Assembly: GCA_965116925.1 (NCBI GenBank)
Contig: OZ220744.1
Coordinates: 2,304,001 to 2,368,000, forward strand
Source of the DNA: Candidatus Poribacteria bacterium
GTDB taxonomy: Bacteria > Poribacteria > WGA-4E > PCPOR2b
Direction: 5' to 3'
DNA: 64,000 nucleotides
The stretch's first letter is position 1. Every line of letters begins with the position of its first letter. Below the pieces are notes generated by a model, which was not told the origin of the DNA, ran no database searches, and was given only the letters and a program-made list of their open reading frames with translations. The translations under genes were made by a program, and so were the position numbers. This document shows, one piece after another, positions 53,434 through 64,000 of this stretch.

Positions 53434-53814
53434 TTATTCGTATTCGATAATTGCGGCGATTGCCGCGGTAATCTCTTGCATAAGTATTGCGCTGAGTCTG
53501 CCTCGTCTGCTAATAAAGCGTGTCACATCCACTCCCCGAATTTGCAGCGTGTCAACGGCTGAAACTTTTGTCAGGCCGTTCATACCACTGGGTTCAATAT
53601 AAACATGCCAGATGTTTCTTGAAAACCGGTTTTGCCAACCGGTGATTGGGGATACCAACTTAATCGGCAAATGTCCCACGCCGTCGGAACTAATAACTAC
53701 AGCGGGACGGATTTTCTGAATCTCTGCGCCAATCGTCGGATCGAAGTTTAGATCCCAAACCTCTCCCCGACGCGGATTAGGTGGATTTGTATTCAACGAG
53801 GTCTCCCCCTTCAA
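53434..53814 (-). CDS. mazF: PemK/MazF family toxin
   Basis: 'PRRGEVW...FDPTIGAEIQKIRPAVVIS', 'NGLTKVS.VD..QIR'; start may be TTG at 53796. Confidence 0.9.
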   Translation of the reverse strand: MKGETSLNTNPPNPRRGEVWDLNFDPTIGAEIQKIRPAVVISSDGVGHLPIKLVSPITGWQNRFSRNIWHVYIEPSGMNGLTKVSAVDTLQIRGVDVTRFISRRGRLSAILMQEITAAIAAIIEYE

Positions 53815-55309
53815 GTTCGCGCCATTCGGGATCGTTTTGGTAGTATTCGACCATCCGCTTTGCTTGTTCCCTCAGTAGGCTGCGCCTCGAATCTGTTGGT
53901 AGTTCTAAAAAAGCACGACGTTCAAGAAGCGATTGAGGTGAAGGAATTTCTAGGGTAGTATTAAGCAATTGGTCAGCTTCTCGCGCTTCTATTACTCCTT
54001 CGGAAAGCGCACGAAACACCTGCTGATGAAATCGCTCTGGTTTTTCGGAAGGTATCTCAATCGGTTCCCGTTTTTTCCAACCCAATTTGTTAATGTCCAT
54101 CCACCACCGCTTATAATGAGAGGTATTAATAATTCGCAAATCCTTCAACCGATAAAGAATTGCTTGAATACTCATTCCGTAACGCCGCTTGAGGTACAAA
54201 AGTTCCTCTAGTTGAATATGGCTTCGCTTCTCACCAACTTCCCGGCGCAAGTGCTCGGCCGGCGCGAGGAAAGCAGCACCGAATCGGAAAGCAGCTTTTT
54301 CTTCATTAATACTTTCACTCAATTTTAGGATCAGATGTCCAAGTTCGTGTACCATGTTGAGTCGATGCCGGTCTCCCGGGGTGTCTCGGCGCGTTGCGAC
54401 TGCTGCCGCCAGCACATTTTTGTCGTTATCTCGCACCACAGCAGAGATGCCATCAAAAGTTTCACTGGCATCAACCTCAATGATGTGGATGAAGTGATCT
54501 TCAAGCACACTCACAAGGTTTGCAATTGGATCAATGCCAAGGTTCCATTGCTGGCGAAGCGCGAGGGCTGCACCTTCGGCGTCTCCCAGTTTGTGGACAG
54601 GGAAACCTTGAATCGGGAGTTCAAGGCTGCTCCGTTCACCCATTCGCTCCAGTAGGGAGATCCGTTTCTCTAACACCTCAGCGACAAAACTCTGTAGCTG
54701 TTCCTGTTCTTTCTTACGCATGCGAGCTCGCTTCCGATAGGCAACCCATTCCACCTGATAAGTTGATTCGCCCCACAATTGAGCAGATTTAATTCCCAAT
54801 GCAGCAGCGATTCGATTGAGTGTCATCACCTTGGGTTGCATCTTTCCGCGTTCATATTTTGAAAGTGCTTGCTTGCTAACCAGTCCATCAATAGCAGCCT
54901 CTAGGTCGTCAAGCGACATGCCACGGGCAAGTCTAAATCGCTTCAGCCGTTCACCCACCATGATTGCAGTATCTCTTTGTTCAGTTGTAGGATCTTCTTT
55001 TCTGATGTCCATTGAAGACGATTTCTTGCGTGTCGAGGATTTCAGGATTTTACCGGAAGCCTCCATCACTCCAATTGTTGTGTCTTTGTAGTGCTCCAAA
55101 GCCGCCTCAGTGGCTTTGGCGTCCACCCCAACCACGTAAACAGGACCTCTGTATCCTCTAAGCTGCTGGGCGGCATTTGTAACAGTGTCGGCTGTCTCTA
55201 CCTCAATGATTTGATGAGGCGTTTTAATATCTGGACCTGGGCCCTGATTATAAGAAACGCCTTCCCGAGCCGCGATAAGTTTGGCAGTTTTGTCATGTTT
55301 GGTTGGCAT
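53777..55309 (-). CDS. Multidomain protein: small PD-(D/E)xK-like N-terminus + XRE HTH + ImmA/IrrE metallopeptidase + antitoxin-like tail
   Basis: 'GERLKRFR...MSLDDL...SKQALSKYERG', HExxH 'HELGH', 'YGMSIQAILYRL'; N- and C-terminal calls are weaker. Confidence 0.75.
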   Translation of the reverse strand: MPTKHDKTAKLIAAREGVSYNQGPGPDIKTPHQIIEVETADTVTNAAQQLRGYRGPVYVVGVDAKATEAALEHYKDTTIGVMEASGKILKSSTRKKSSSMDIRKEDPTTEQRDTAIMVGERLKRFRLARGMSLDDLEAAIDGLVSKQALSKYERGKMQPKVMTLNRIAAALGIKSAQLWGESTYQVEWVAYRKRARMRKKEQEQLQSFVAEVLEKRISLLERMGERSSLELPIQGFPVHKLGDAEGAALALRQQWNLGIDPIANLVSVLEDHFIHIIEVDASETFDGISAVVRDNDKNVLAAAVATRRDTPGDRHRLNMVHELGHLILKLSESINEEKAAFRFGAAFLAPAEHLRREVGEKRSHIQLEELLYLKRRYGMSIQAILYRLKDLRIINTSHYKRWWMDINKLGWKKREPIEIPSEKPERFHQQVFRALSEGVIEAREADQLLNTTLEIPSPQSLLERRAFLELPTDSRRSLLREQAKRMVEYYQNDPEWRELEGGDLVEYKST

Positions 55310-55338: not shown

Positions 55339-55469
55339 GAATTGAGTTTACAAACAGCCCTCAAATCTGCCTAATTATGAATCAAACGGATTAATTTTTC
55401 AAGGGAAAAAAAACTAAGGAGAAGAGGGATTTCTTGCACAGTCAAAGTGGGGCAAGGAGGAGGATGCTA
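55339..55469 (-). promoter_or_regulatory. Promoter module copy 1 (TTGAAA-17-CATAAT)
   Basis: Homologous to 58555-58667. Confidence 0.6.
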
Positions 55470-55592: not shown

Positions 55593-56504
55593 TTATCTTA
55601 GCCGGTCTAATCTTTTTTTTAATTCTGACCGATTAAAGCCTTTTATTCTAAACACCCAATCGACGATCTTCTCTTTAAACAGATTAAGGATTTTTATTTT
55701 ATCTAGCATAATCCCCATCAATCCAACAATTAGGATTCCTATTAGAGGAACAAAAATCTGAATAACACCAATAATTGGTTCTGCTTCAGTCCATTTTCTG
55801 ATGATTAAGGGGACCAACCAATAAGATATAGAACCGAAAAGAAGAACGCTCACCACCATTATGGTGATTTTGACACGGCGTTCAGTTCTTTCTATGAAAC
55901 GAACAAAAGCATCTCTTATATAACCGATGGCTTCCACTTGATGAACAATCGGATAATCCACCAATGCTTTTGAGTACGCTTGTTCGATTACATAAAAATC
56001 CCTCAAATCTGATGTTTCTAGCAAGGCGTGCAGTAAAAGAGGTTGCCATTCTTCCTGTGGAAATTCGCCCTTGTAAAGATCTAACGCGACTTTGTCAATG
56101 GATCTCTGGGGTTGCGGTGGATTAGAAGAGATATCTGGAAACAAGCGGTTGAGAATATAAAAATCCCTTGTTGAATGATTCTGGCAATATGATTTTAGAT
56201 TTCCCCTTTCTAGTTCAACATTATCTATCGCCATTGCGGATAGGTCAATTAAATTCTTCGTGTAGTGCATCCCGCTTATTGGTCGCTTTCTCCTTTGTGC
56301 TTCTATCAAGTTTGTTAAGTCTTCTTTCGACGGAATACCAGTGCAGAAAATTGAAAGGCAAATTTTTTCAATCTCAGCCAAATCGCCTTCTGTTGGATAA
56401 TTCAAAGGTTTCCTCACTAAAAATCCATAAAACGCTCGTTCCTTTAAGCTGGACTTATCAAGAAGAATCTGCTGTTGTTTTCTTAATTCATCAGTGATGG
56501 GCAT
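55593..56504 (-). CDS. Argonaute-associated protein with two C-terminal TM helices (putative effector)
   Basis: ATG 1 nt after the ago stop (TAAGATG); hydrophobic 'ITIMVVSVLLFGSISYWLVPLII' and 'IIGVIQIFVPLIGILIVGLMGIML'. Confidence 0.75.
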   Translation of the reverse strand: MPITDELRKQQQILLDKSSLKERAFYGFLVRKPLNYPTEGDLAEIEKICLSIFCTGIPSKEDLTNLIEAQRRKRPISGMHYTKNLIDLSAMAIDNVELERGNLKSYCQNHSTRDFYILNRLFPDISSNPPQPQRSIDKVALDLYKGEFPQEEWQPLLLHALLETSDLRDFYVIEQAYSKALVDYPIVHQVEAIGYIRDAFVRFIERTERRVKITIMVVSVLLFGSISYWLVPLIIRKWTEAEPIIGVIQIFVPLIGILIVGLMGIMLDKIKILNLFKEKIVDWVFRIKGFNRSELKKRLDRLR

Positions 56505-56505
56505 C

Positions 56506-58533
56506 TTATATGAACCAAAGTTTATCATTTAATTTATCCAGAATCGCATAGTCCCAATCGGGTACTTTTTTAAGTTCATATACCATTTTCGCCATGAGGT
56601 TTGGATATTTTATGGTAACAGGTTTACTAGCAGGAATAAATGAACGGTAAGAAAGGTGAGTAAAATAAAGTACTTGTCTCGTGATTTCGTAAATGTCCCT
56701 GTATTCTGACCTTTTATCCAATCGTACCTGTATTGGAACAACAGAACGACCTCCCAAGTGAAGCAGTGCTTGTCGATATGACAACTGAATAAACGTTCCG
56801 CGAGCCGGTGCGTGGCGTCCTTGATTCGCGAAAATTCTGAAGTTGTGATTGTAGCTGAGATGCACCAGACTATATTGAATATCATACGCCTTAAAATGTT
56901 TGAGGGCATTACTAACAGCTTCCAATTCATACTCCCTGCCCGCCTCCTTAAATAAGTGAAATATAAGTCGAACCCTATCTCCTTCTGATAAACCTTGCTT
57001 ATCGAAAGCTTGCACCAGAGTATCTATAAGATACCTTTCAAGATTTTTTGCATATTCGCCCATTGTGCTTAATTGGCTACAATCTCCAACAAGATACGTA
57101 CCATTATAATCAAAAACGTTGGCAAAACCGATAATCCATTCTCCACTATCGTCAGTCGTGGACCCGACTCCTATAATGAGCTCAGAGATATCTTTTTGAG
57201 ATTTCTCTATTGTCCACGCTGTACCCCCGAGTTTAGAATAGACATTGAGAGCAAAATCATTGTTTATAATATCATCATTTTTTCTAAGAACCTCTATTGT
57301 TAGATCTTGAGTTGGTAGTCGTTGGTTCAATAACTTCGCTTTTGTCAAATAATAGGGGGACCGAAGCGTATCAATTTCCTTGTCCTGCTGAGAGAGAAGG
57401 ATGATAGCCAAATTATAATCATTGGCATCTATCTTATCTAAAACGTCAAGGTAAGTTTCTTGCGATTTCACTGTTTTCAGATGAAATTTAACATTCTTTA
57501 AATGGAACAAATCTCGCAATTTATTACCCAATGTCACGATATATTCTTCGATGCTTCCTTCATATTCATCAGGAGAGACAACAAGAATATTCAACCTTTC
57601 ATTGCTAAAAAGATCGAGTGAATACGGACCCAATTCGGATACAACCTCGTTGTAATATCCCGGTCTACTCCTTTCATTGTAATAAAAGTACTTGGGTTTC
57701 CGGATACATGTTGAATTAAAAGAGGCACTTGGCAGGTTAACAAGTATGAAGTTTGAGATTTCCAGTCCGTTTGGAATATAAAGCTTTGATGCAACTTTGT
57801 TGAAGTTCTCAGCACACTTTTTAAGATATTCAAATTCATTACTTGACGATTCTATTCGGTCAAGGTATTTTTCGTAATCTTGCTGCAGTCCTGTCGATTC
57901 TAAGTATCTATAGAGATTATGAGCTGAAGCGACAATTTCTCCTTTATCATTTCGCGTCAACCCACGGGTATCTGTTAAATGACTCGTTATTACTTCTTCA
58001 CTACCAGTAAAAATTGGTTTCATGCGTCTTCTAACAGTTAAAGCAATAACTTGTCTTTTTTCCAGTTTGGAGTAAAGGTTCCTAAGAGAAAATACTAAAG
58101 TTGGCTGCAGAGATAAAGCTCCAAATTGCCTCCGTTTCTCGCTCTTTGATTCGACTTCCCAAGTCGAAGAGTGTTTTTGCCAAAAAACTCGATAATCATT
58201 GCTTCTGAAAAACGTCACAATAGCAAACTCTACGATTTTTGTGAAAATCGGAGCATGTTCTTTAATAGTTATTGTGGCTTCCTCAAAAATGCCAGGCAAT
58301 GATTCGCTAGTTGGCTGAATTTTCCAGATGTATAAGTCACCAGCAGATCTGTAGATGAAGAAATCCGGGTGCTTCTTATACTTAGTGTACAGATCATCTG
58401 AATACGCTGCCTTTAGCAAAGACAGCTTATCTTTATTGAAAACCGTCTCTAAAAAATTGAGCGTCAATCCCTGTCCTATTGGCATAGATTCTTGGGGAAT
58501 ACGGCGGGCAGCTGTGTTATATTTCGTTGACAT
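56506..58533 (-). CDS. Long-B prokaryotic Argonaute, catalytically inactive PIWI
   Basis: MID 'YYLTK...PTQ...NVYSKLGG..W'; PIWI 'ELIIGVG', 'RLIFH.FK', 'RGT', 'QVLYFTHLSYRS...PVTIKYP'; DEDX aspartates absent. Confidence 0.88.
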   Translation of the reverse strand: MSTKYNTAARRIPQESMPIGQGLTLNFLETVFNKDKLSLLKAAYSDDLYTKYKKHPDFFIYRSAGDLYIWKIQPTSESLPGIFEEATITIKEHAPIFTKIVEFAIVTFFRSNDYRVFWQKHSSTWEVESKSEKRRQFGALSLQPTLVFSLRNLYSKLEKRQVIALTVRRRMKPIFTGSEEVITSHLTDTRGLTRNDKGEIVASAHNLYRYLESTGLQQDYEKYLDRIESSSNEFEYLKKCAENFNKVASKLYIPNGLEISNFILVNLPSASFNSTCIRKPKYFYYNERSRPGYYNEVVSELGPYSLDLFSNERLNILVVSPDEYEGSIEEYIVTLGNKLRDLFHLKNVKFHLKTVKSQETYLDVLDKIDANDYNLAIILLSQQDKEIDTLRSPYYLTKAKLLNQRLPTQDLTIEVLRKNDDIINNDFALNVYSKLGGTAWTIEKSQKDISELIIGVGSTTDDSGEWIIGFANVFDYNGTYLVGDCSQLSTMGEYAKNLERYLIDTLVQAFDKQGLSEGDRVRLIFHLFKEAGREYELEAVSNALKHFKAYDIQYSLVHLSYNHNFRIFANQGRHAPARGTFIQLSYRQALLHLGGRSVVPIQVRLDKRSEYRDIYEITRQVLYFTHLSYRSFIPASKPVTIKYPNLMAKMVYELKKVPDWDYAILDKLNDKLWFI

Positions 58534-58554: not shown

Positions 58555-58667
58555 GAATTTGGTTTACAAAAATTTGAGAAAATCGCCATATTATAAACCA
58601 AACAAATTAATTTAGCAAGGAAAAAAGGATCTGCTGCAAAATTAAAGTAGGAATAGGAGGGATACTA
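58555..58667 (-). promoter_or_regulatory. Promoter module copy 2 (TTGCTA-17-TATAAT at 58618-58590)
   Basis: Consensus-like promoter with AAATTAATTT palindrome at the start of the spacer; homologous to 55339-55469. Confidence 0.65.
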
Positions 58668-58926: not shown

Positions 58927-61146
58927 TTAGGAAGCATCGCCATAAAATGACTGATTTAACGTCTTATCTTCCTCACTGACACCAAAATCCCCGTCCTCTA
59001 TCTCAGAAAGGTTTACATACAATTGGTTCTTATCCAATAGTTTCGCTAGACATTTCTTCTGTTTGTCTATCCCGTTTTCATCTTGACCGATTTCGATGAA
59101 ATCCTCCACCGCATCTTCCGGGACTTCCGGATTCACGTACCAGTTTAGGAATGAGTTTTCAGCGATGTCCCACCAGATTGCGACAAGTTCTTCAGAGGAT
59201 TGAGCGACTTTGATTTTGTCCATAAAGGCTTGATTGTATGGCATCAGTTCGCAATAGATGAAATCGCCGCCGCCCTGATAGTTGACGGATTTGGAGATCC
59301 CGCCGGTGTCGTAGTCAATTTCTTCGATTGGCTTTCCCTCTGCCTTAACTTTTTTGCCGACAGCTTTTTTGAGCCTCCCCATTGTGATGGTTTCCGTGTA
59401 ATCCATCTGTTCAATCGTAATCCATTGTCGGTTCATCTTGTGGGCAACCGCGGCGGTGGTAGCAGAACCTGCGAAGAAGTCGATAACAAGGTCTCCCTCA
59501 ATTGTTGACATTTCTATAATGCGCTTAATTGTTTCTTCAGGTTTCGGGTTGTCAAAGGTTTTGCCATCAAACAACCGTTTCAAGTGTAAAGTTCCCCTTT
59601 CGGAGTTAACTTCTTTATCCCACCATACAGAACGAGCCATACGAGAAGTACCTCGATATTTTTCAACTATTTGATAACGATTCTTCTCTTGCATCGCTTT
59701 GCCACAGATATTGGTATTGAGGTTTTGTTGCGATTTCTCCTTACCCCAACGCCAAACGGTTTGTACGCCCTGAGACTTTGCCGGCAATACTTCGACGAAT
59801 CCTTGATTTTTTTCTAAAGCAATTTCAAAAAAACCATTCTTATCCTGATTCTTCGGATTAAGATAAAAAGGATATACGAGATTTGGACGATTTTTATCAT
59901 TGAACTTTATATTTCTGTTCCGAAGTTCTCTTATCTCAAACCCCCCCCCTTCATCTTCATAAGGAAAGGTTTTATCTTTGTCTTCAATTGGATAAATTTT
60001 ATAGCTATTTGACCTTGAAAAAACATTAATGAATTCGTGCATGTTTGCCACTCCACCATAATCCCTGCCACGAGGATTATTGACTACAGTGATTACCTCA
60101 ATAAAATTTTCATTACCGAGTACCTCGTCCATCAAAACTTTGAGGTACGCTTGCTCGTTATCATCACATTGAACAAAAATAACCCCGTCGTCCCGTAACA
60201 ATTCTCTCGCTACTTCTAACCGATTTTTCATAAACGTCAGCCATGAGGAATGATTAAAGCTATCGTTATAGCCGAAACTATCGCTTCCTGTGTTATACGG
60301 TGGGTCAATGTAAATCAGTTTGACCTTTCCGCGAAACTGGGTTTTCAGAGTGTGCAATGCCAGTAGGTTGTTCCCTTTGATAAGCAAGTTTTCCCGAATT
60401 ACGCCGTTACCATCCCGCTTAATCTCTGTCACCTTCCCCTCACCGTCAGTCGTGTAGCGTTTCCAACCAGTCAACACTTTTGGGTCAAAGAGGCGGTCAA
60501 TCTCGTCTTGCGCTAGGATTTCATTAAAAAATATTTCTTGGCGCTTCTCCTCCTCCTTTGTTTGTCCACCTTCTAGTACACAGTCTTTGTAGGGCCAAAC
60601 CAGAGAAACTTCACCCCGTTCAGGCAGAAATTTGTCCTCAACCTTCAAGCCGATTTTGTTGCGGAAGCGGGTGTAGGAATTGGCGAGGAAGTTTTTGTCG
60701 GAGATGTAGTCAATGAAGGTATTGGTGTTGAAGATATAGTGCCCTTCGATCTCGTCAAAGAATTTTGCCTTCATGTCCGCATCACCCAGCAGCAGCCTCA
60801 CGAAGTCATGGTCAATCTTCCACGCCCGATCTATCACCGCCGCCTTGACTAGCTCGCTTTCGTTGTCAATGAAGCGGCGATCAGTTTTGAGGATGTTGGT
60901 TAATTTTTCGTGAAAAGGCTTTGGCGTGTTAGCATGGCTTTTTCCGGAGGTCGCTGAAGGCAGTGTACTGCCATCTTGTTGATATAGTTCGACGGTCTCC
61001 TCAACAATGCGGCATAGCTCTGAGAAAACCTCTTGTTCATTATCCCCGTGACAGCCACCATAAAAGAGTCCGGGACAACTGCCAACATAGCATTGGTCTT
61101 CATCAGACCATTCGACAATTTTGACGTAACGGTTGCTTGTATTCAT
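58927..61146 (-). CDS. mod: Type III R-M methyltransferase Mod with in-frame N-terminal HicB-like antitoxin domain
   Basis: aa 1-~72 'YVKIVEWSDEDQCYVGSCPGL...CHGD....LP'; then 'NLLIKGNNL', 'IYIDPPY', 'PKPE', 'DFFAGSATT'. Confidence 0.88.
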   Translation of the reverse strand: MNTSNRYVKIVEWSDEDQCYVGSCPGLFYGGCHGDNEQEVFSELCRIVEETVELYQQDGSTLPSATSGKSHANTPKPFHEKLTNILKTDRRFIDNESELVKAAVIDRAWKIDHDFVRLLLGDADMKAKFFDEIEGHYIFNTNTFIDYISDKNFLANSYTRFRNKIGLKVEDKFLPERGEVSLVWPYKDCVLEGGQTKEEEKRQEIFFNEILAQDEIDRLFDPKVLTGWKRYTTDGEGKVTEIKRDGNGVIRENLLIKGNNLLALHTLKTQFRGKVKLIYIDPPYNTGSDSFGYNDSFNHSSWLTFMKNRLEVARELLRDDGVIFVQCDDNEQAYLKVLMDEVLGNENFIEVITVVNNPRGRDYGGVANMHEFINVFSRSNSYKIYPIEDKDKTFPYEDEGGGFEIRELRNRNIKFNDKNRPNLVYPFYLNPKNQDKNGFFEIALEKNQGFVEVLPAKSQGVQTVWRWGKEKSQQNLNTNICGKAMQEKNRYQIVEKYRGTSRMARSVWWDKEVNSERGTLHLKRLFDGKTFDNPKPEETIKRIIEMSTIEGDLVIDFFAGSATTAAVAHKMNRQWITIEQMDYTETITMGRLKKAVGKKVKAEGKPIEEIDYDTGGISKSVNYQGGGDFIYCELMPYNQAFMDKIKVAQSSEELVAIWWDIAENSFLNWYVNPEVPEDAVEDFIEIGQDENGIDKQKKCLAKLLDKNQLYVNLSEIEDGDFGVSEEDKTLNQSFYGDAS

Positions 61147-61340
61147 TTTTTCGATTCCTCAATAGCGGCTTTGACAGCTTTTTCCTGATAGTGCTTTGCG
61201 TCAGCACGGAGTTGGCCTGAGAGTATCACAGATTTAGGAACTTTCGGATGGACAAATTTCCGATGACTCCCTTTTCCGCCACGGTTTACAAATCCAGCAG
61301 TTTCAAGGTCTTTGGTGAGCTCTCTTATCTTACGTGGCAT
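61143..61340 (-). CDS. hicA: HicA family toxin
   Basis: 'L..AGF....GKGSHRKF.HP'; 4-nt overlap (ATGA) with the HicB::Mod gene. Confidence 0.9.
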   Translation of the reverse strand: MPRKIRELTKDLETAGFVNRGGKGSHRKFVHPKVPKSVILSGQLRADAKHYQEKAVKAAIEESKK

Positions 61341-61385: not shown

Positions 61386-61523
61386 GTTGGGTTTCACTCT
61401 GGTTATCTGTAAGCGATGTTGTTGAAAAGTAAAAACTTTACTGTTCTTGATAGCGAGACACTTTCAACCGTTCAACCTAACCTACAATACTTGAGGTTAC
61501 GGCATACAGAGTATGCCTACTAC
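61386..61523 (-). repeat. Interrupted REP-like element (GTTGGGTTTCACT...GTTCAACCTAACCTAC) plus CGGCATAC..GTATGCCTACTAC hairpin
   Basis: Two complementary arms separated by ~70 nt; second hairpin matches 39555-39578. Confidence 0.5.
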
Positions 61524-64000
61524 TATAACACGGACTCAAGACTTTCCCTGAATTGTCTTTCATCTTGGTTGTCATAGAATGGCACACCAATCAGTCGGTA
61601 TTTTTGCATCCCGCGTTGCGTATTAAACTCCAGAACCTCCCCTGCAAATTTTTCTTTAATTTGTTCTAAGAAGTCCGCTTTCCATTTTTCGTGTTTTTGC
61701 AGATACTTTCCCTTGGGTTCAATAAATATCTGACGGATGAGGGTGTTTCCGTTTTTCTCATGCAGAAACAGAACAAAATCGGGCTCAAACCCCTCTCCGT
61801 CGTCAAAGTTGTAAATTTTGAAATGCCTTTCGTTACGGATCAGATATATCCCGTCGTATTCCCTCTTTAACTCGTCCATTTGGGCGTCAAGCATTCGGAC
61901 AAATGCCTTTTCTTCACTGGTGCCGTAATTGGCATTGAATACATACCACTCTCTATCGGAGACCAACTGTTCGTCGCCATCCGCCCTTTCGTTGCCTTCA
62001 ACCAATTTAAGGATTTTGTCGGTGAAGATTGAATTGATATTGCTTGGCTCAAACGTTTCTGTGCCTTTGTATTCGGTTCTGTTTTGACGCAATTCAGATG
62101 CAATTTGATTAAGCAATCCTGTCATCGCATCAAGGTAAGTTTCATTAGACAACAGGTATCGTTCATCGCCCTGAAGGGTGATTGACAACCCACCCAAGTA
62201 TTCATCCGCCTTAATGAACTGGCGGACGGATTGAATATGTGGGAAATAGGTTTTCAGAGACTTGAAAGCAAAAAAAGGATTTCGTGCAATAGCAGCTCTG
62301 ACGATATGGAACGGTATATCTCCTACCGGAATATTTCTCCGACCTGATTCTACAATCTGTTGAACCTCACCGCTGTCCTCCAGAACCGCCTCAGAAACAC
62401 CCCTACCGGTGGCGAGTGAATAGCGGTAATTCTTCAAGGAAACGTCGAGATCGGCAAATGAACGGACAGATTCATTCCTGTTCTTAACCCGTTCATTGAT
62501 GTAGATAATCCCGCGCTTGTAAAAATCGGTCTCCTTAAACTCACTTTTTAGCTTAAGGGGTTTTTCAACCGTCCGCTCGTCAAGTATCCCTTCGTCAATT
62601 AGGGCGGTACGGATTTCAGAGATATAGCGGGAATCGTTGACACTGTGATAGTGGAGCTCTTCCAACACCCGTAGTTCCGTCGTAAGATTTTTGTCGAATT
62701 TCCGTCGGTATTGATCCGGATAGTCATCGGTAGCAAAGGGGAAGTACCGCGCTCCGCGTCCGATTAGTTGCGCTTCTGCAATTGTTGTTTTGCCCGGTTT
62801 TCCTGCCCTTGCGTCGCGGGTGGTGTAGCACCGAACAATATCAAACAGATTTAAGACATCCCAACCTTCATCCAGTTTACGCACGGCAAAGATAGCGCGG
62901 ATGCGGTTGTTGGGGTCCTCAAGCGTGTTGATCCGAATCTGATAGTTCTTTTCGTCTTGTTCCTTGTTGACTGAGAGGCAGTATGCTCTCTGAAATTCCT
63001 GTTTTAGACGTCCGACCAGATTGATGTTATTCTCGTCAAAAAATTGAAATGCCCGTTGAACCAGTGGAATATTCGATTGACGGATATTGGCAATGTGCGC
63101 TGCTGTGAGACCATCAATGAGTCTGTGAAACTTCTCCTTGTTCGCTTCTGATTCGTCAATTTTGCGCTGTGCCTTAAACAGAATCACCGGCTTGAGGTTA
63201 ATCTGATGTTTTGCCGCTACCTCCTGTTTATACTGATTGAGAATCAGTGCCTGTATGATGCGATCTCTTTCCTCAAAATCTGCCTGAACGATAAAGACAT
63301 CTTTGGAATAGCCGTCATTGCGGAACTGCCGTAGATCATACTTATATAATACCTTGTTGCGGTATTTATCGGCAAGGCTGCGATGGTTATAATCGAGGGT
63401 GGCAGTAAATTCTAGCAGCAAGTTGTCTGGATTTTGACTAAAGATACGCTCTACCGTATTTTCCCAGCTTTCTATCAACTCCTGTCCGGCTTTCGTACTG
63501 GTGTTGATATGGTGTGCCTCATCAGCTAAGAGCACAATCTTTTTGTCCTTGAAATCCTCGAACGTTAAAGCATTTTCTTTCTGTGTATTCAGATCGATAT
63601 GCAGCTGTTGGATGGTGGTGAAGCAGATATTGATGTCGTTTTCGTTGACACCCTCAAAATTGGGGACCGGTGTCACGGGGACACGCATCGATCCGAAATG
63701 GAGGGTTTCATTGAACAGGTATTTAGAGGACAGAGGATTGAGGAAATTGTCCTTTGTCTTTTCGATGATATTGGTGGAGTTGACGAAGAAGATAAAATTT
63801 CGATAGCCTTTTTCATAGAGATAGAGGATCAAGCCCGCCATGATGAGCGTTTTACCGCTGCCGGTCGCCATATTGAACAGAAGATGCAGGGGCTTTTCTT
63901 TGCCCGGAAAGTGATTGTCAAGGCAATAAAAGAAACGTGCAAAGGCTTCTTCCTGATACGGGCGGAGGTCAAACTTGGGATTCAGATTGTCTTTGAGATA
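61523..64000 (-). CDS. res: Type III R-M restriction subunit Res (5' end outside window)
   Basis: Frame open to the window edge ('LRPYQ'), 'MATGSGKT', 'DEAHH', 'EGWD', 'QLIGRGAR', C-terminal 'PDF...IEPK'. Confidence 0.92.
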   Translation of the reverse strand, partial: YLKDNLNPKFDLRPYQEEAFARFFYCLDNHFPGKEKPLHLLFNMATGSGKTLIMAGLILYLYEKGYRNFIFFVNSTNIIEKTKDNFLNPLSSKYLFNETLHFGSMRVPVTPVPNFEGVNENDINICFTTIQQLHIDLNTQKENALTFEDFKDKKIVLLADEAHHINTSTKAGQELIESWENTVERIFSQNPDNLLLEFTATLDYNHRSLADKYRNKVLYKYDLRQFRNDGYSKDVFIVQADFEERDRIIQALILNQYKQEVAAKHQINLKPVILFKAQRKIDESEANKEKFHRLIDGLTAAHIANIRQSNIPLVQRAFQFFDENNINLVGRLKQEFQRAYCLSVNKEQDEKNYQIRINTLEDPNNRIRAIFAVRKLDEGWDVLNLFDIVRCYTTRDARAGKPGKTTIAEAQLIGRGARYFPFATDDYPDQYRRKFDKNLTTELRVLEELHYHSVNDSRYISEIRTALIDEGILDERTVEKPLKLKSEFKETDFYKRGIIYINERVKNRNESVRSFADLDVSLKNYRYSLATGRGVSEAVLEDSGEVQQIVESGRRNIPVGDIPFHIVRAAIARNPFFAFKSLKTYFPHIQSVRQFIKADEYLGGLSITLQGDERYLLSNETYLDAMTGLLNQIASELRQNRTEYKGTETFEPSNINSIFTDKILKLVEGNERADGDEQLVSDREWYVFNANYGTSEEKAFVRMLDAQMDELKREYDGIYLIRNERHFKIYNFDDGEGFEPDFVLFLHEKNGNTLIRQIFIEPKGKYLQKHEKWKADFLEQIKEKFAGEVLEFNTQRGMQKYRLIGVPFYDNQDERQFRESLESVL

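What the first reader, a model, noticed from the sequence alone, without database searches (positions are those of the whole stretch)
55593..58533. Inactive long-B Argonaute translationally coupled to a 2-TM effector
Seen: 675-aa pAgo with a 5'-phosphate-type MID pocket (Y-K-Q-K) and RsAgo-like PIWI lacking the catalytic tetrad; the next ATG is 1 nt after its stop and encodes a ~230-aa soluble domain plus two TM helices; the region looks AT-rich by eye. Known: long-B pAgos pair with nuclease, Sir2 or transmembrane partners (BPAN/BPAS/BPAM) and act by abortive infection. Inference: a BPAM-like membrane-depolarising system. I cannot tell whether the partner is the described bAgaM family or a new one; its position between Type III R-M and an IrrE-MazF module suggests layered defence.
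Basis: partly seen in the sequence, partly recalled or inferred. Interest (0 to 1): 0.72.

Follow-up and report, generated by a model that had tools for sequence, protein, structure and literature searches.

The report
Argonaute with calcium-uniporter-like membrane partner
A bacterial Argonaute defence gene is paired with a membrane protein whose family resembles the pore of the mitochondrial calcium channel, suggesting that detection of foreign DNA may open an ion pore and kill the infected cell.

Summary
A 675-aa inactive long-B pAgo (58533-56506, minus strand) is followed 1 nt later by a 303-aa two-TM partner. The cassette is AT-rich and sits among other defence genes. A pAgo lies directly upstream of the partner in 10 of 10 testable other loci.

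The partner is not the described bAgaM (og_100). Profile-profile match to an og_100 family is insignificant (probability 3%). A family member is unassigned in the table that defines og_100. The coupled pAgos form their own clade.

The family's C-terminal third resembles the mitochondrial calcium uniporter (MCU) pore. 76 of 121 full-length homologs carry W-x-x-x-E-P at the start of TM2. One member passes the Pfam MCU cut-off (E 2e-9), and MCU is the best PDB sequence hit. The window's own protein (W238, E242, P243; Asp replaced by Thr) has no MCU hit by itself, and fold searches were inconclusive.

Best model, inferred: target-bound pAgo engages the helical N-domain and opens an MCU-like pore, causing abortive infection. 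This is a new effector variant of long-B pAgo systems and a testable role for bacterial MCU-like domains.

The parts
56506..58533 (-). Inactive long-B prokaryotic Argonaute, 675 aa
57232..57354 (-). MID 5'-phosphate pocket residues Y394, K398, Q409, K434
   Evidence: aligned to EcAgo Y426/K430/Q441/K469
55593..56504 (-). Partner gene, 303 aa, starting 1 nt after the pAgo stop
55956..56504 (-). All-helical N-terminal domain (residues 1-183), family-specific, inferred pAgo-docking part
   Evidence: AF2 models; no family or fold assignment
56235..56282 (-). Most conserved N-domain segment (residues 75-90: P75, G78, H80, Y81, N84, L88), starting in a low-confidence loop; candidate docking loop
   Evidence: pLDDT < 50 at residues 76-79; role inferred
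55800..55856 (-). TM1 (residues 217-235)
55776..55793 (-). MCU-filter-like motif, residues 238-243: W238, E242, P243 kept; Thr at the Asp position
   Evidence: motif definition
55719..55775 (-). TM2 (residues 244-262)
55596..55703 (-). Basic C-terminal helices that align with the MCU post-TM2 region
58555..58626 (-). 72-nt leader with a sigma70-like promoter (58618-58590, 10 of 12 consensus matches) upstream of pAgo
   Evidence: consensus match only
55339..55410 (-). Second, 71% identical copy of the leader with a promoter-like site (55402-55374), upstream of the HTH-IrrE gene
53777..55309 (-). Neighbour: HTH + IrrE/M78 peptidase (PADLOC RmrA-like)
53434..53814 (-). Neighbour: MazF/PemK toxin
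58927..61146 (-). Neighbour: Type III R-M methyltransferase
61523..64000 (-). Neighbour: Type III restriction subunit (runs off the window)

Best explanation
A two-gene abortive-infection system of a separate long-B pAgo clade, whose effector carries an MCU-like pore module. SHOWN: gene pairing, inactive PIWI, Y-K-Q-K pocket, 2-TM partner, separation from og_100, and family-level sequence similarity of the C-terminal third to MCU. INFERRED from EcBPAN: the pAgo loads 5'-phosphorylated RNA guides, binds invader ssDNA, and then recruits the partner's helical N-domain, possibly through the conserved 75-90 loop. INFERRED from MCU: clustering drives four TM hairpins into a pore with a ring of E242 at the periplasmic mouth and both termini in the cytoplasm. 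Cations, possibly Ca2+, then flow in down the membrane potential, depolarising and killing or arresting the infected cell. Step odds: defence system with a TM effector 0.85; C-domain truly homologous to MCU 0.8; gated ion pore 0.55; Ca2+-selective 0.3.
For: COUPLING: a pAgo lies directly upstream in 10 of 10 testable loci (checked). One locus was untestable and 2 duplicates were dropped. Partners as low as 22% identical are included. Junctions are 0-1 nt in 7 of 10 and overlapping in 3 of 10. In a same-genus genome one lesion removed the pAgo C-half and all but 35 partner codons together. MCU LIKENESS: MCU is the best PDB hit of the family profile (6d7w, E 0.0018; 13 of the 60 rows shown are MCU). 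Pfam MCU is the family matched by most members, 11 of 70 at E<=1; 4 of these are under E 0.001 and P0095 passes the cut-off (38.1 vs 30.8 bits, E 2.2e-9). P0095 belongs to the family by its N-domain alone (89.9 bits). W-x-x-x-E-P occurs in 76 of 121 full-length homologs, 42 with the Asp. W238 and E242 are invariant in 50 of 50 close homologs. The alignment to fungal MCU runs without gaps through TM2 and beyond. CONTROL: the 2-TM og_100 family gives 0 of 24 MCU hits and no PDB hit at E<=5. PRECEDENT: trypanosome MCUc/d lack the Asp yet are required for Ca2+ uptake.
Against: The window protein itself has no Pfam MCU hit. MCU is not among the 25 of 44 families shown for the 50 close homologs. Only 1 of 70 members passes the cut-off, and its genomic neighbourhood was not seen. 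The PDB profile E-value is modest: an unrelated glutamate transporter scores E 0.024. 45 of 121 homologs lack the exact spacing; many have a two-residue insertion, and some have lost the motif, including pAgo-coupled L023. So a Ca2+ filter is not essential across the family. The Asp ring position is Thr here. No functional data exist.
Confidence: 0.55

Rival explanations
1. It is a pAgo-activated membrane effector, but it kills by non-selective membrane damage or depolarisation. The MCU-like hairpin is an inherited scaffold or a chance resemblance, with no filter function.
For: The motif is lost or spaced differently in 45 of 121 homologs, including pAgo-coupled L023. The window protein has Thr for Asp. 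og_100 kills with TM helices that have no MCU hit.
Against: W238 and E242 are invariant in 50 of 50 close homologs amid variable TM residues, and W/E/P are kept in 60/59/58 of 70 distant ones.
Confidence: 0.27
2. It is a highly diverged bAgaM (BPAM) member. The same N-domain and TM plan descend from one long-B effector.
For: Same gene order, size (about 300 aa) and two C-terminal TMs. hhalign gives a colinear 104-column N-domain alignment at E 0.015.
Against: hhalign probability is 3%. Reciprocal hmmsearch scores are at most 11.7 bits and come from the TM region. Family member WP_093920438.1 has no orthogroup, whereas the control WP_068227216.1 is og_100. The pAgos are split by a 99/100 branch and by 100 on rebuilding.
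Confidence: 0.13
3. The partner is not a killing effector but a membrane anchor or regulator, and the pAgo acts alone or with the neighbouring R-M, HNH or TA genes.
For: HNH, PAPS-reductase-like, TIR-STAND or Type III R-M genes flank several loci. No pAgo-TM interaction was detected for EaBPAM.
Against: Only the pair is constant, while the flanks vary. The PIWI is inactive. MCU-like tails also end a Roc-COR protein and other scaffolds, which is an effector-like position.
Confidence: 0.05

Closest known systems
BPAM (long-B pAgo + bAgaM/og_100; EaBPAM, PMC10620215)
   Same: Inactive long-B pAgo upstream of a ~300-aa protein with a soluble N-part and two C-terminal TMs, in one operon.
   Different: Partner not detectably homologous (probability 3%); separate pAgo clade with shorter proteins (660-675 aa vs 730-763); MCU-like motif absent from the og_100 family tested.
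BPAN (EcAgo-EcbAgaN; PMC13535254, PDB 23wq)
   Same: EcAgo is the closest solved pAgo (E 2.4e-40), with the same MID pocket. It provides the model of a helical N-domain recruited after target binding.
   Different: The effector is a membrane module, not a nuclease. The N-domains show no significant match (probability 0.3%).
Mitochondrial calcium uniporter pore (MCU, PF04678)
   Same: Helix, TM1, short loop, W-x-x-x-E-P, TM2, basic helices; family-level HMM hits.
   Different: Unrelated N-domain. No EMRE or MICU homolog was sought. Asp is Thr in this copy and the motif is variable in the family. Tetramer and conduction are untested.
Short pAgo SiAgo-Aga1-Aga2 membrane system (seen as a search listing only; mechanism recalled)
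   Same: A pAgo sensor coupled to a membrane effector that depolarises the cell.
   Different: Short pAgo with three components; its effector was not compared here.

Membership tests
long-B pAgo | Falls in the long-B clade by MID-PIWI | tested here: met
   Best solved matches are EcAgo and RsAgo-type. The pAgo with the accession next to a partner-family member (WP_093920437.1, 666 aa) is classed longB in the defining table. No long-A outgroup was in my trees.
long-B pAgo | PIWI without DEDX tetrad | tested here: met
   G457 at the first Asp position and no Asp in the second motif, in all 8 clade members aligned
long-B pAgo | YK-type 5'-phosphate MID pocket | tested here: met
   Y394/K398/Q409/K434
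long-B pAgo | Reduced PAZ domain | not tested
   No PAZ model or alignment was examined
BPAM / bAgaM (og_100) | pAgo directly upstream of a C-terminal TM protein | tested here: met
BPAM / bAgaM (og_100) | Partner belongs to orthogroup og_100 | tested here: not met
   hhalign probability 3%, E 0.015 against a 24-sequence family seeded by og_100 member WP_068227216.1. Family member WP_093920438.1 is unassigned in Table S2. EabAgaM itself was not aligned.
BPAM / bAgaM (og_100) | pAgo groups with BPAM pAgos | tested here: not met
   8 clade pAgos are separated from the one og_100-coupled pAgo and the BPAN pAgos. Only one BPAM pAgo was sampled, and it lies on a long branch.
BPAM / bAgaM (og_100) | TM-dependent cell death needing both genes | not testable with these tools
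   Experiment required
BPAN / BPAS | PD-(D/E)XK nuclease or Sir2 domain in the partner | tested here: not met
   No such Pfam hit, while 5 of 7 plasmid pAgo partners hit REase_DpnII-MboI
MCU pore family (PF04678) | Two TMs with WDXXEP at the start of TM2 | tested here: inconclusive
   W, E and P kept, D replaced by T in the window copy; 42 of 121 homologs have the full motif and 76 of 121 have W-x-x-x-E-P
MCU pore family (PF04678) | Score over the Pfam cut-off | tested here: inconclusive
   Window protein: no hit. 1 of 70 family members is over the cut-off and 4 of 70 are at E<0.001.
MCU pore family (PF04678) | Same fold by structure search | tested here: inconclusive
   No match at E<=0.001 or Z>=8 for either model. 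Human MCU appears at rank 30, E 3.3.
MCU pore family (PF04678) | Tetrameric Ca2+-conducting pore | not testable with these tools

The most novel reading that the evidence does not exclude
Bacterial MCU-like pore domains are mobile immune effectors. They are attached to a pAgo-docking domain here, to a Roc-COR GTPase in a relative, and to other scaffolds. This system is a nucleic-acid-programmed Ca2+ channel, and the eukaryotic uniporter pore was recruited from such a bacterial cell-death module.
Probability: 0.25. Interest if true: 0.93.

Novelty: new variant of a known kind. Interest (0 to 1): 0.8.

Why it matters
It adds an effector family to long-B pAgo immunity beyond og_15, og_44 and og_100. 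Unlike bAgaM, whose killing mechanism is unresolved in the papers read, it comes with a residue-level hypothesis (W238/E242). It also proposes a job for bacterial MCU-like domains, which have no assigned role in the literature I could search. If confirmed, it would tie the origin of a central mitochondrial channel to bacterial immunity and provide a guide-programmable ion channel.

Tried and rejected
Family scans: Pfam, PADLOC and NCBIfam give no hit for the window partner. The ESM Atlas gave no usable hit.

Fold searches: Foldseek and VIA on two AF2 models gave only generic helical matches (best Z 6.9 and 7.4). Neither domain was folded alone. EcbAgaN was not listed, and the structure library ends in April 2026, so its absence says nothing.

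Shared N-domain with bAgaN: the best hhalign segment overlaps the EcbAgaN docking loop, but at probability 0.3%, so it is not claimed.

Other collections: no partner in viral contigs or plasmids; no pAgo in phages. PF04678 rang in 0 of 151 genomes of the host phylum and 0 of 14 controls, which is uninformative. Of 14 of 401 matches in a second phylum, 2 were family members, 1 was an MCU-like tail and 11 were unrelated hydrophobic or coiled proteins.

RNA and expression: no Rfam match. The promoter scan is not enriched overall (16 found vs 12.4 +/- 4.0). Contigs from RNA libraries cover pieces of both genes, but this does not show transcription.

Earlier scan notes: none found. Bick et al. 2012 is not held.

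Full report
OBSERVATION. The minus strand carries a 675-aa ORF (58533-56506) and, one base after its TAA, an ATG at 56504 that opens a 303-aa ORF ending at 55593. The first is a pAgo: Pfam Piwi E 8.7e-15, PADLOC pAgo 730 bits, closest solved relatives EcAgo (23wq, E 2.4e-40) and RsAgo-type entries. Y394, K398, Q409 and K434 align with the EcAgo 5'-phosphate residues. The PIWI has Gly at the first catalytic Asp position and no Asp in the second motif (positions recalled). The second ORF has hydropathy peaks at 217-235 and 244-262 and no Pfam, PADLOC or NCBIfam hit. GC is 37.8% against 48.1% in the adjacent housekeeping block. Type III Mod/Res and HicA lie upstream; HTH-IrrE and MazF lie downstream. 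A 72-nt imperfect repeat precedes both the pAgo and the HTH-IrrE gene, each copy holding a 10-of-12 sigma70-like site. This suggests separate units, though such sites are not enriched overall. The host is probably a Poribacterium, inferred from three named Poribacteria among the five genome hits.

THE PAIR IS A CONSERVED UNIT. The partner has 53 close homologs and 94 representatives at 50% clustering. Named members come from Bacteroidota and Gammaproteobacteria as well. I fetched 13 loci with a family member besides the window's own. Two were duplicates, and one contig begins inside the gene. In the remaining 10 of 10, a pAgo or its end lies directly upstream, even when the partner is only 22% identical; in L001 the pAgo is interrupted by insertion sequences. 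Junctions are 0-1 nt in 7 and overlapping in 3. Flanking genes vary. Among 60 relatives, the partner profile found a full member in 2, and in 0 of 19 same-genus genomes. The pAgo query found full clade members in the same 2 genomes. It also found one same-genus locus where a single lesion removed the pAgo C-half and all but the last 35 partner codons. The pattern fits a mobile two-gene defence cassette.

IT IS NOT bAgaM. Song et al. define bAgaM as og_100. A plasmid pAgo locus supplied WP_068227216.1, which the defining table lists as og_100. Its 24-sequence family (24 of 29 hits, fragments dropped) matches the partner family at hhalign probability 3%, E 0.015. Reciprocal hmmsearch reaches at most 11.7 bits, in the TM region. 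In the same table, family member WP_093920438.1 has no orthogroup, while WP_093920437.1 is a 666-aa longB, YK, tetrad-less pAgo. A MID-PIWI tree of 15 pAgos separates the 8 clade members from six BPAN, BPAM and related pAgos at 99/100. One archaeal row lies on a very long branch. Rebuilding without 2 rows keeps the split. Only one og_100-coupled pAgo was sampled. EabAgaM itself was not aligned; by eye it lacks the motif below. The weak colinear N-domain alignment leaves remote common ancestry open. The bAgaN N-domain does not match (probability 0.3%).

AN MCU-LIKE PORE MODULE. A profile of 70 diverse members searched against PDB sequences ranked a fungal mitochondrial calcium uniporter first (E 0.0018, positions 214-300). 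13 of the 60 rows shown are MCU, but an unrelated transporter reached E 0.024. Scanned singly, 11 of 70 members hit Pfam MCU at E<=1, more than any other family. Four are below E 0.001, and P0095 passes the curated cut-off (38.1 vs 30.8 bits, E 2.2e-9; also precomputed). P0095 is a family member by its N-domain alone (89.9 bits); its neighbourhood was not seen. Its alignment to MCU is ungapped from the filter through TM2 into the following basic helix. The MCU filter is a fourfold WDXXEP, with D and E rings. W-x-x-x-E-P occurs in 76 of 121 full-length homologs, 42 with the Asp, and W238 and E242 are invariant in 50 of 50 close ones. The window copy has Thr for Asp; trypanosome MCUc/d also lack this Asp and are still required for uptake. 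As a control, the equally two-TM og_100 family gives 0 of 24 MCU hits and no PDB hit. Against this reading: the window protein has no MCU hit by itself, and MCU is not among the 25 of 44 families shown for the close homologs. 45 of 121 homologs deviate from the spacing, and pAgo-coupled L023 lacks the motif. AF2 models (mean pLDDT 81 and 89) show a helical N-domain, a long helix running into TM1, a short loop, TM2 and two C-terminal helices. Structure searches neither confirmed nor excluded MCU. The same module ends other bacterial proteins: a Roc-COR GTPase in a relative (MCU 33.2 bits, over cut-off), P0146 (28 bits) and L024 (20.3 bits). That is how interchangeable effector domains behave (inference).

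MECHANISM. In EcBPAN, RNA-guided target binding recruits the effector's helical N-domain through a loop and builds an 8:8 assembly. EaBPAM needs both genes and the TM region to kill. By analogy, I propose that guide-loaded pAgo binds invader DNA and docks the partner's N-domain, whose most conserved segment (75-90) begins in a flexible loop. Clustering would then open an MCU-like tetramer. Basic flanks suggest both termini are cytoplasmic, with E242 at the periplasmic mouth, matching MCU's orientation to the membrane potential (inference; MCU topology recalled). Cation influx would depolarise and kill the cell. Confidence is 0.55. The main rival is non-selective membrane damage (0.27); remote bAgaM is 0.13.

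NOVELTY. pAgo plus TM effector is known, so this is a new variant. I found no paper linking pAgo or anti-phage defence to an MCU-like domain (searches), but most subscription papers are outside the library. That some bacteria have MCU homologs is recalled from Bick et al. 2012 (not held); a Pittis et al. figure legend mentions bacterial sequences in its trees.

PAPERS SEEN. PMC10620215: abstract, sections 6, 13, 14, 32 and part 1 of the supplementary data file. Its supplementary-figure PDF was unreadable and may show this family among the 'other' clusters. PMC13535254: abstract, sections 21, 23, 24, 26. PMC6299218: passages, rows of Tables S1/S2 and part 1 of S2; two figure files were unreadable. 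PMC7423614: passages and a supplement search with no hits. PMC7434445, PMC6727756, PMC7081724, PMC7050145: passages. All others: search listings only.

VERDICT. Real, and more interesting than first read: interest 0.8.

Noticed in passing
L013:1483-3222 (-), G025: Roc-COR GTPase (864-aa open frame) ending in a two-TM MCU-like domain that passes the Pfam MCU cut-off (33.2 bits).
   Followed up: partly
L024:1441-3312 (-), G286; also protein P0146: Other bacterial proteins with an MCU-like C-terminal domain on unrelated N-terminal scaffolds; no pAgo in the 3.3-kb L024 locus.
   Followed up: partly
window 58555-58626 and 55339-55410: 72-nt, 71% identical leader with an in-register sigma70-like promoter upstream of two different defence cassettes.
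   Followed up: partly
L039:830-2454 (G001): Same island in a same-genus genome, but the pAgo C-half and most of the partner are replaced by an apparent insertion-sequence remnant.
   Followed up: partly
L001:2434-6000: pAgo interrupted by two insertion-sequence transposase genes while the partner stays intact.
   Followed up: no
L001-L004, upstream of pAgo: An HNH-type gene lies just upstream of pAgo in three loci and one gene further in L003 (behind a TIR-STAND gene); PAPS-reductase-like genes precede it in L002 and L004.
   Followed up: partly
window 53777-55309: The HTH-IrrE protein has an extra ~100-aa N-terminal segment with no family hit, and its stop overlaps the MazF start.
   Followed up: no
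window 60900-61340: HicA gene sits between Type III Res and Mod; the first ~75 residues of the Mod ORF look by eye like a fused HicB-type antitoxin.
   Followed up: no
L008:1-5891: Distant homologous pair lies in an integrative-element-like region (ParA, FlhC/FlhD-like regulators, helicase; labels by eye).
   Followed up: no
L019:2261-4875 (Haloplanus plasmid): Archaeal pAgo followed by a 438-aa partner with C-terminal hydrophobic helices and no Pfam hit; not matched by this family's profile.
   Followed up: no
L040-L043: Relatives carry PIWI-domain ORFs of about 1,115-1,135 aa, probably fused pAgos of another type.
   Followed up: no
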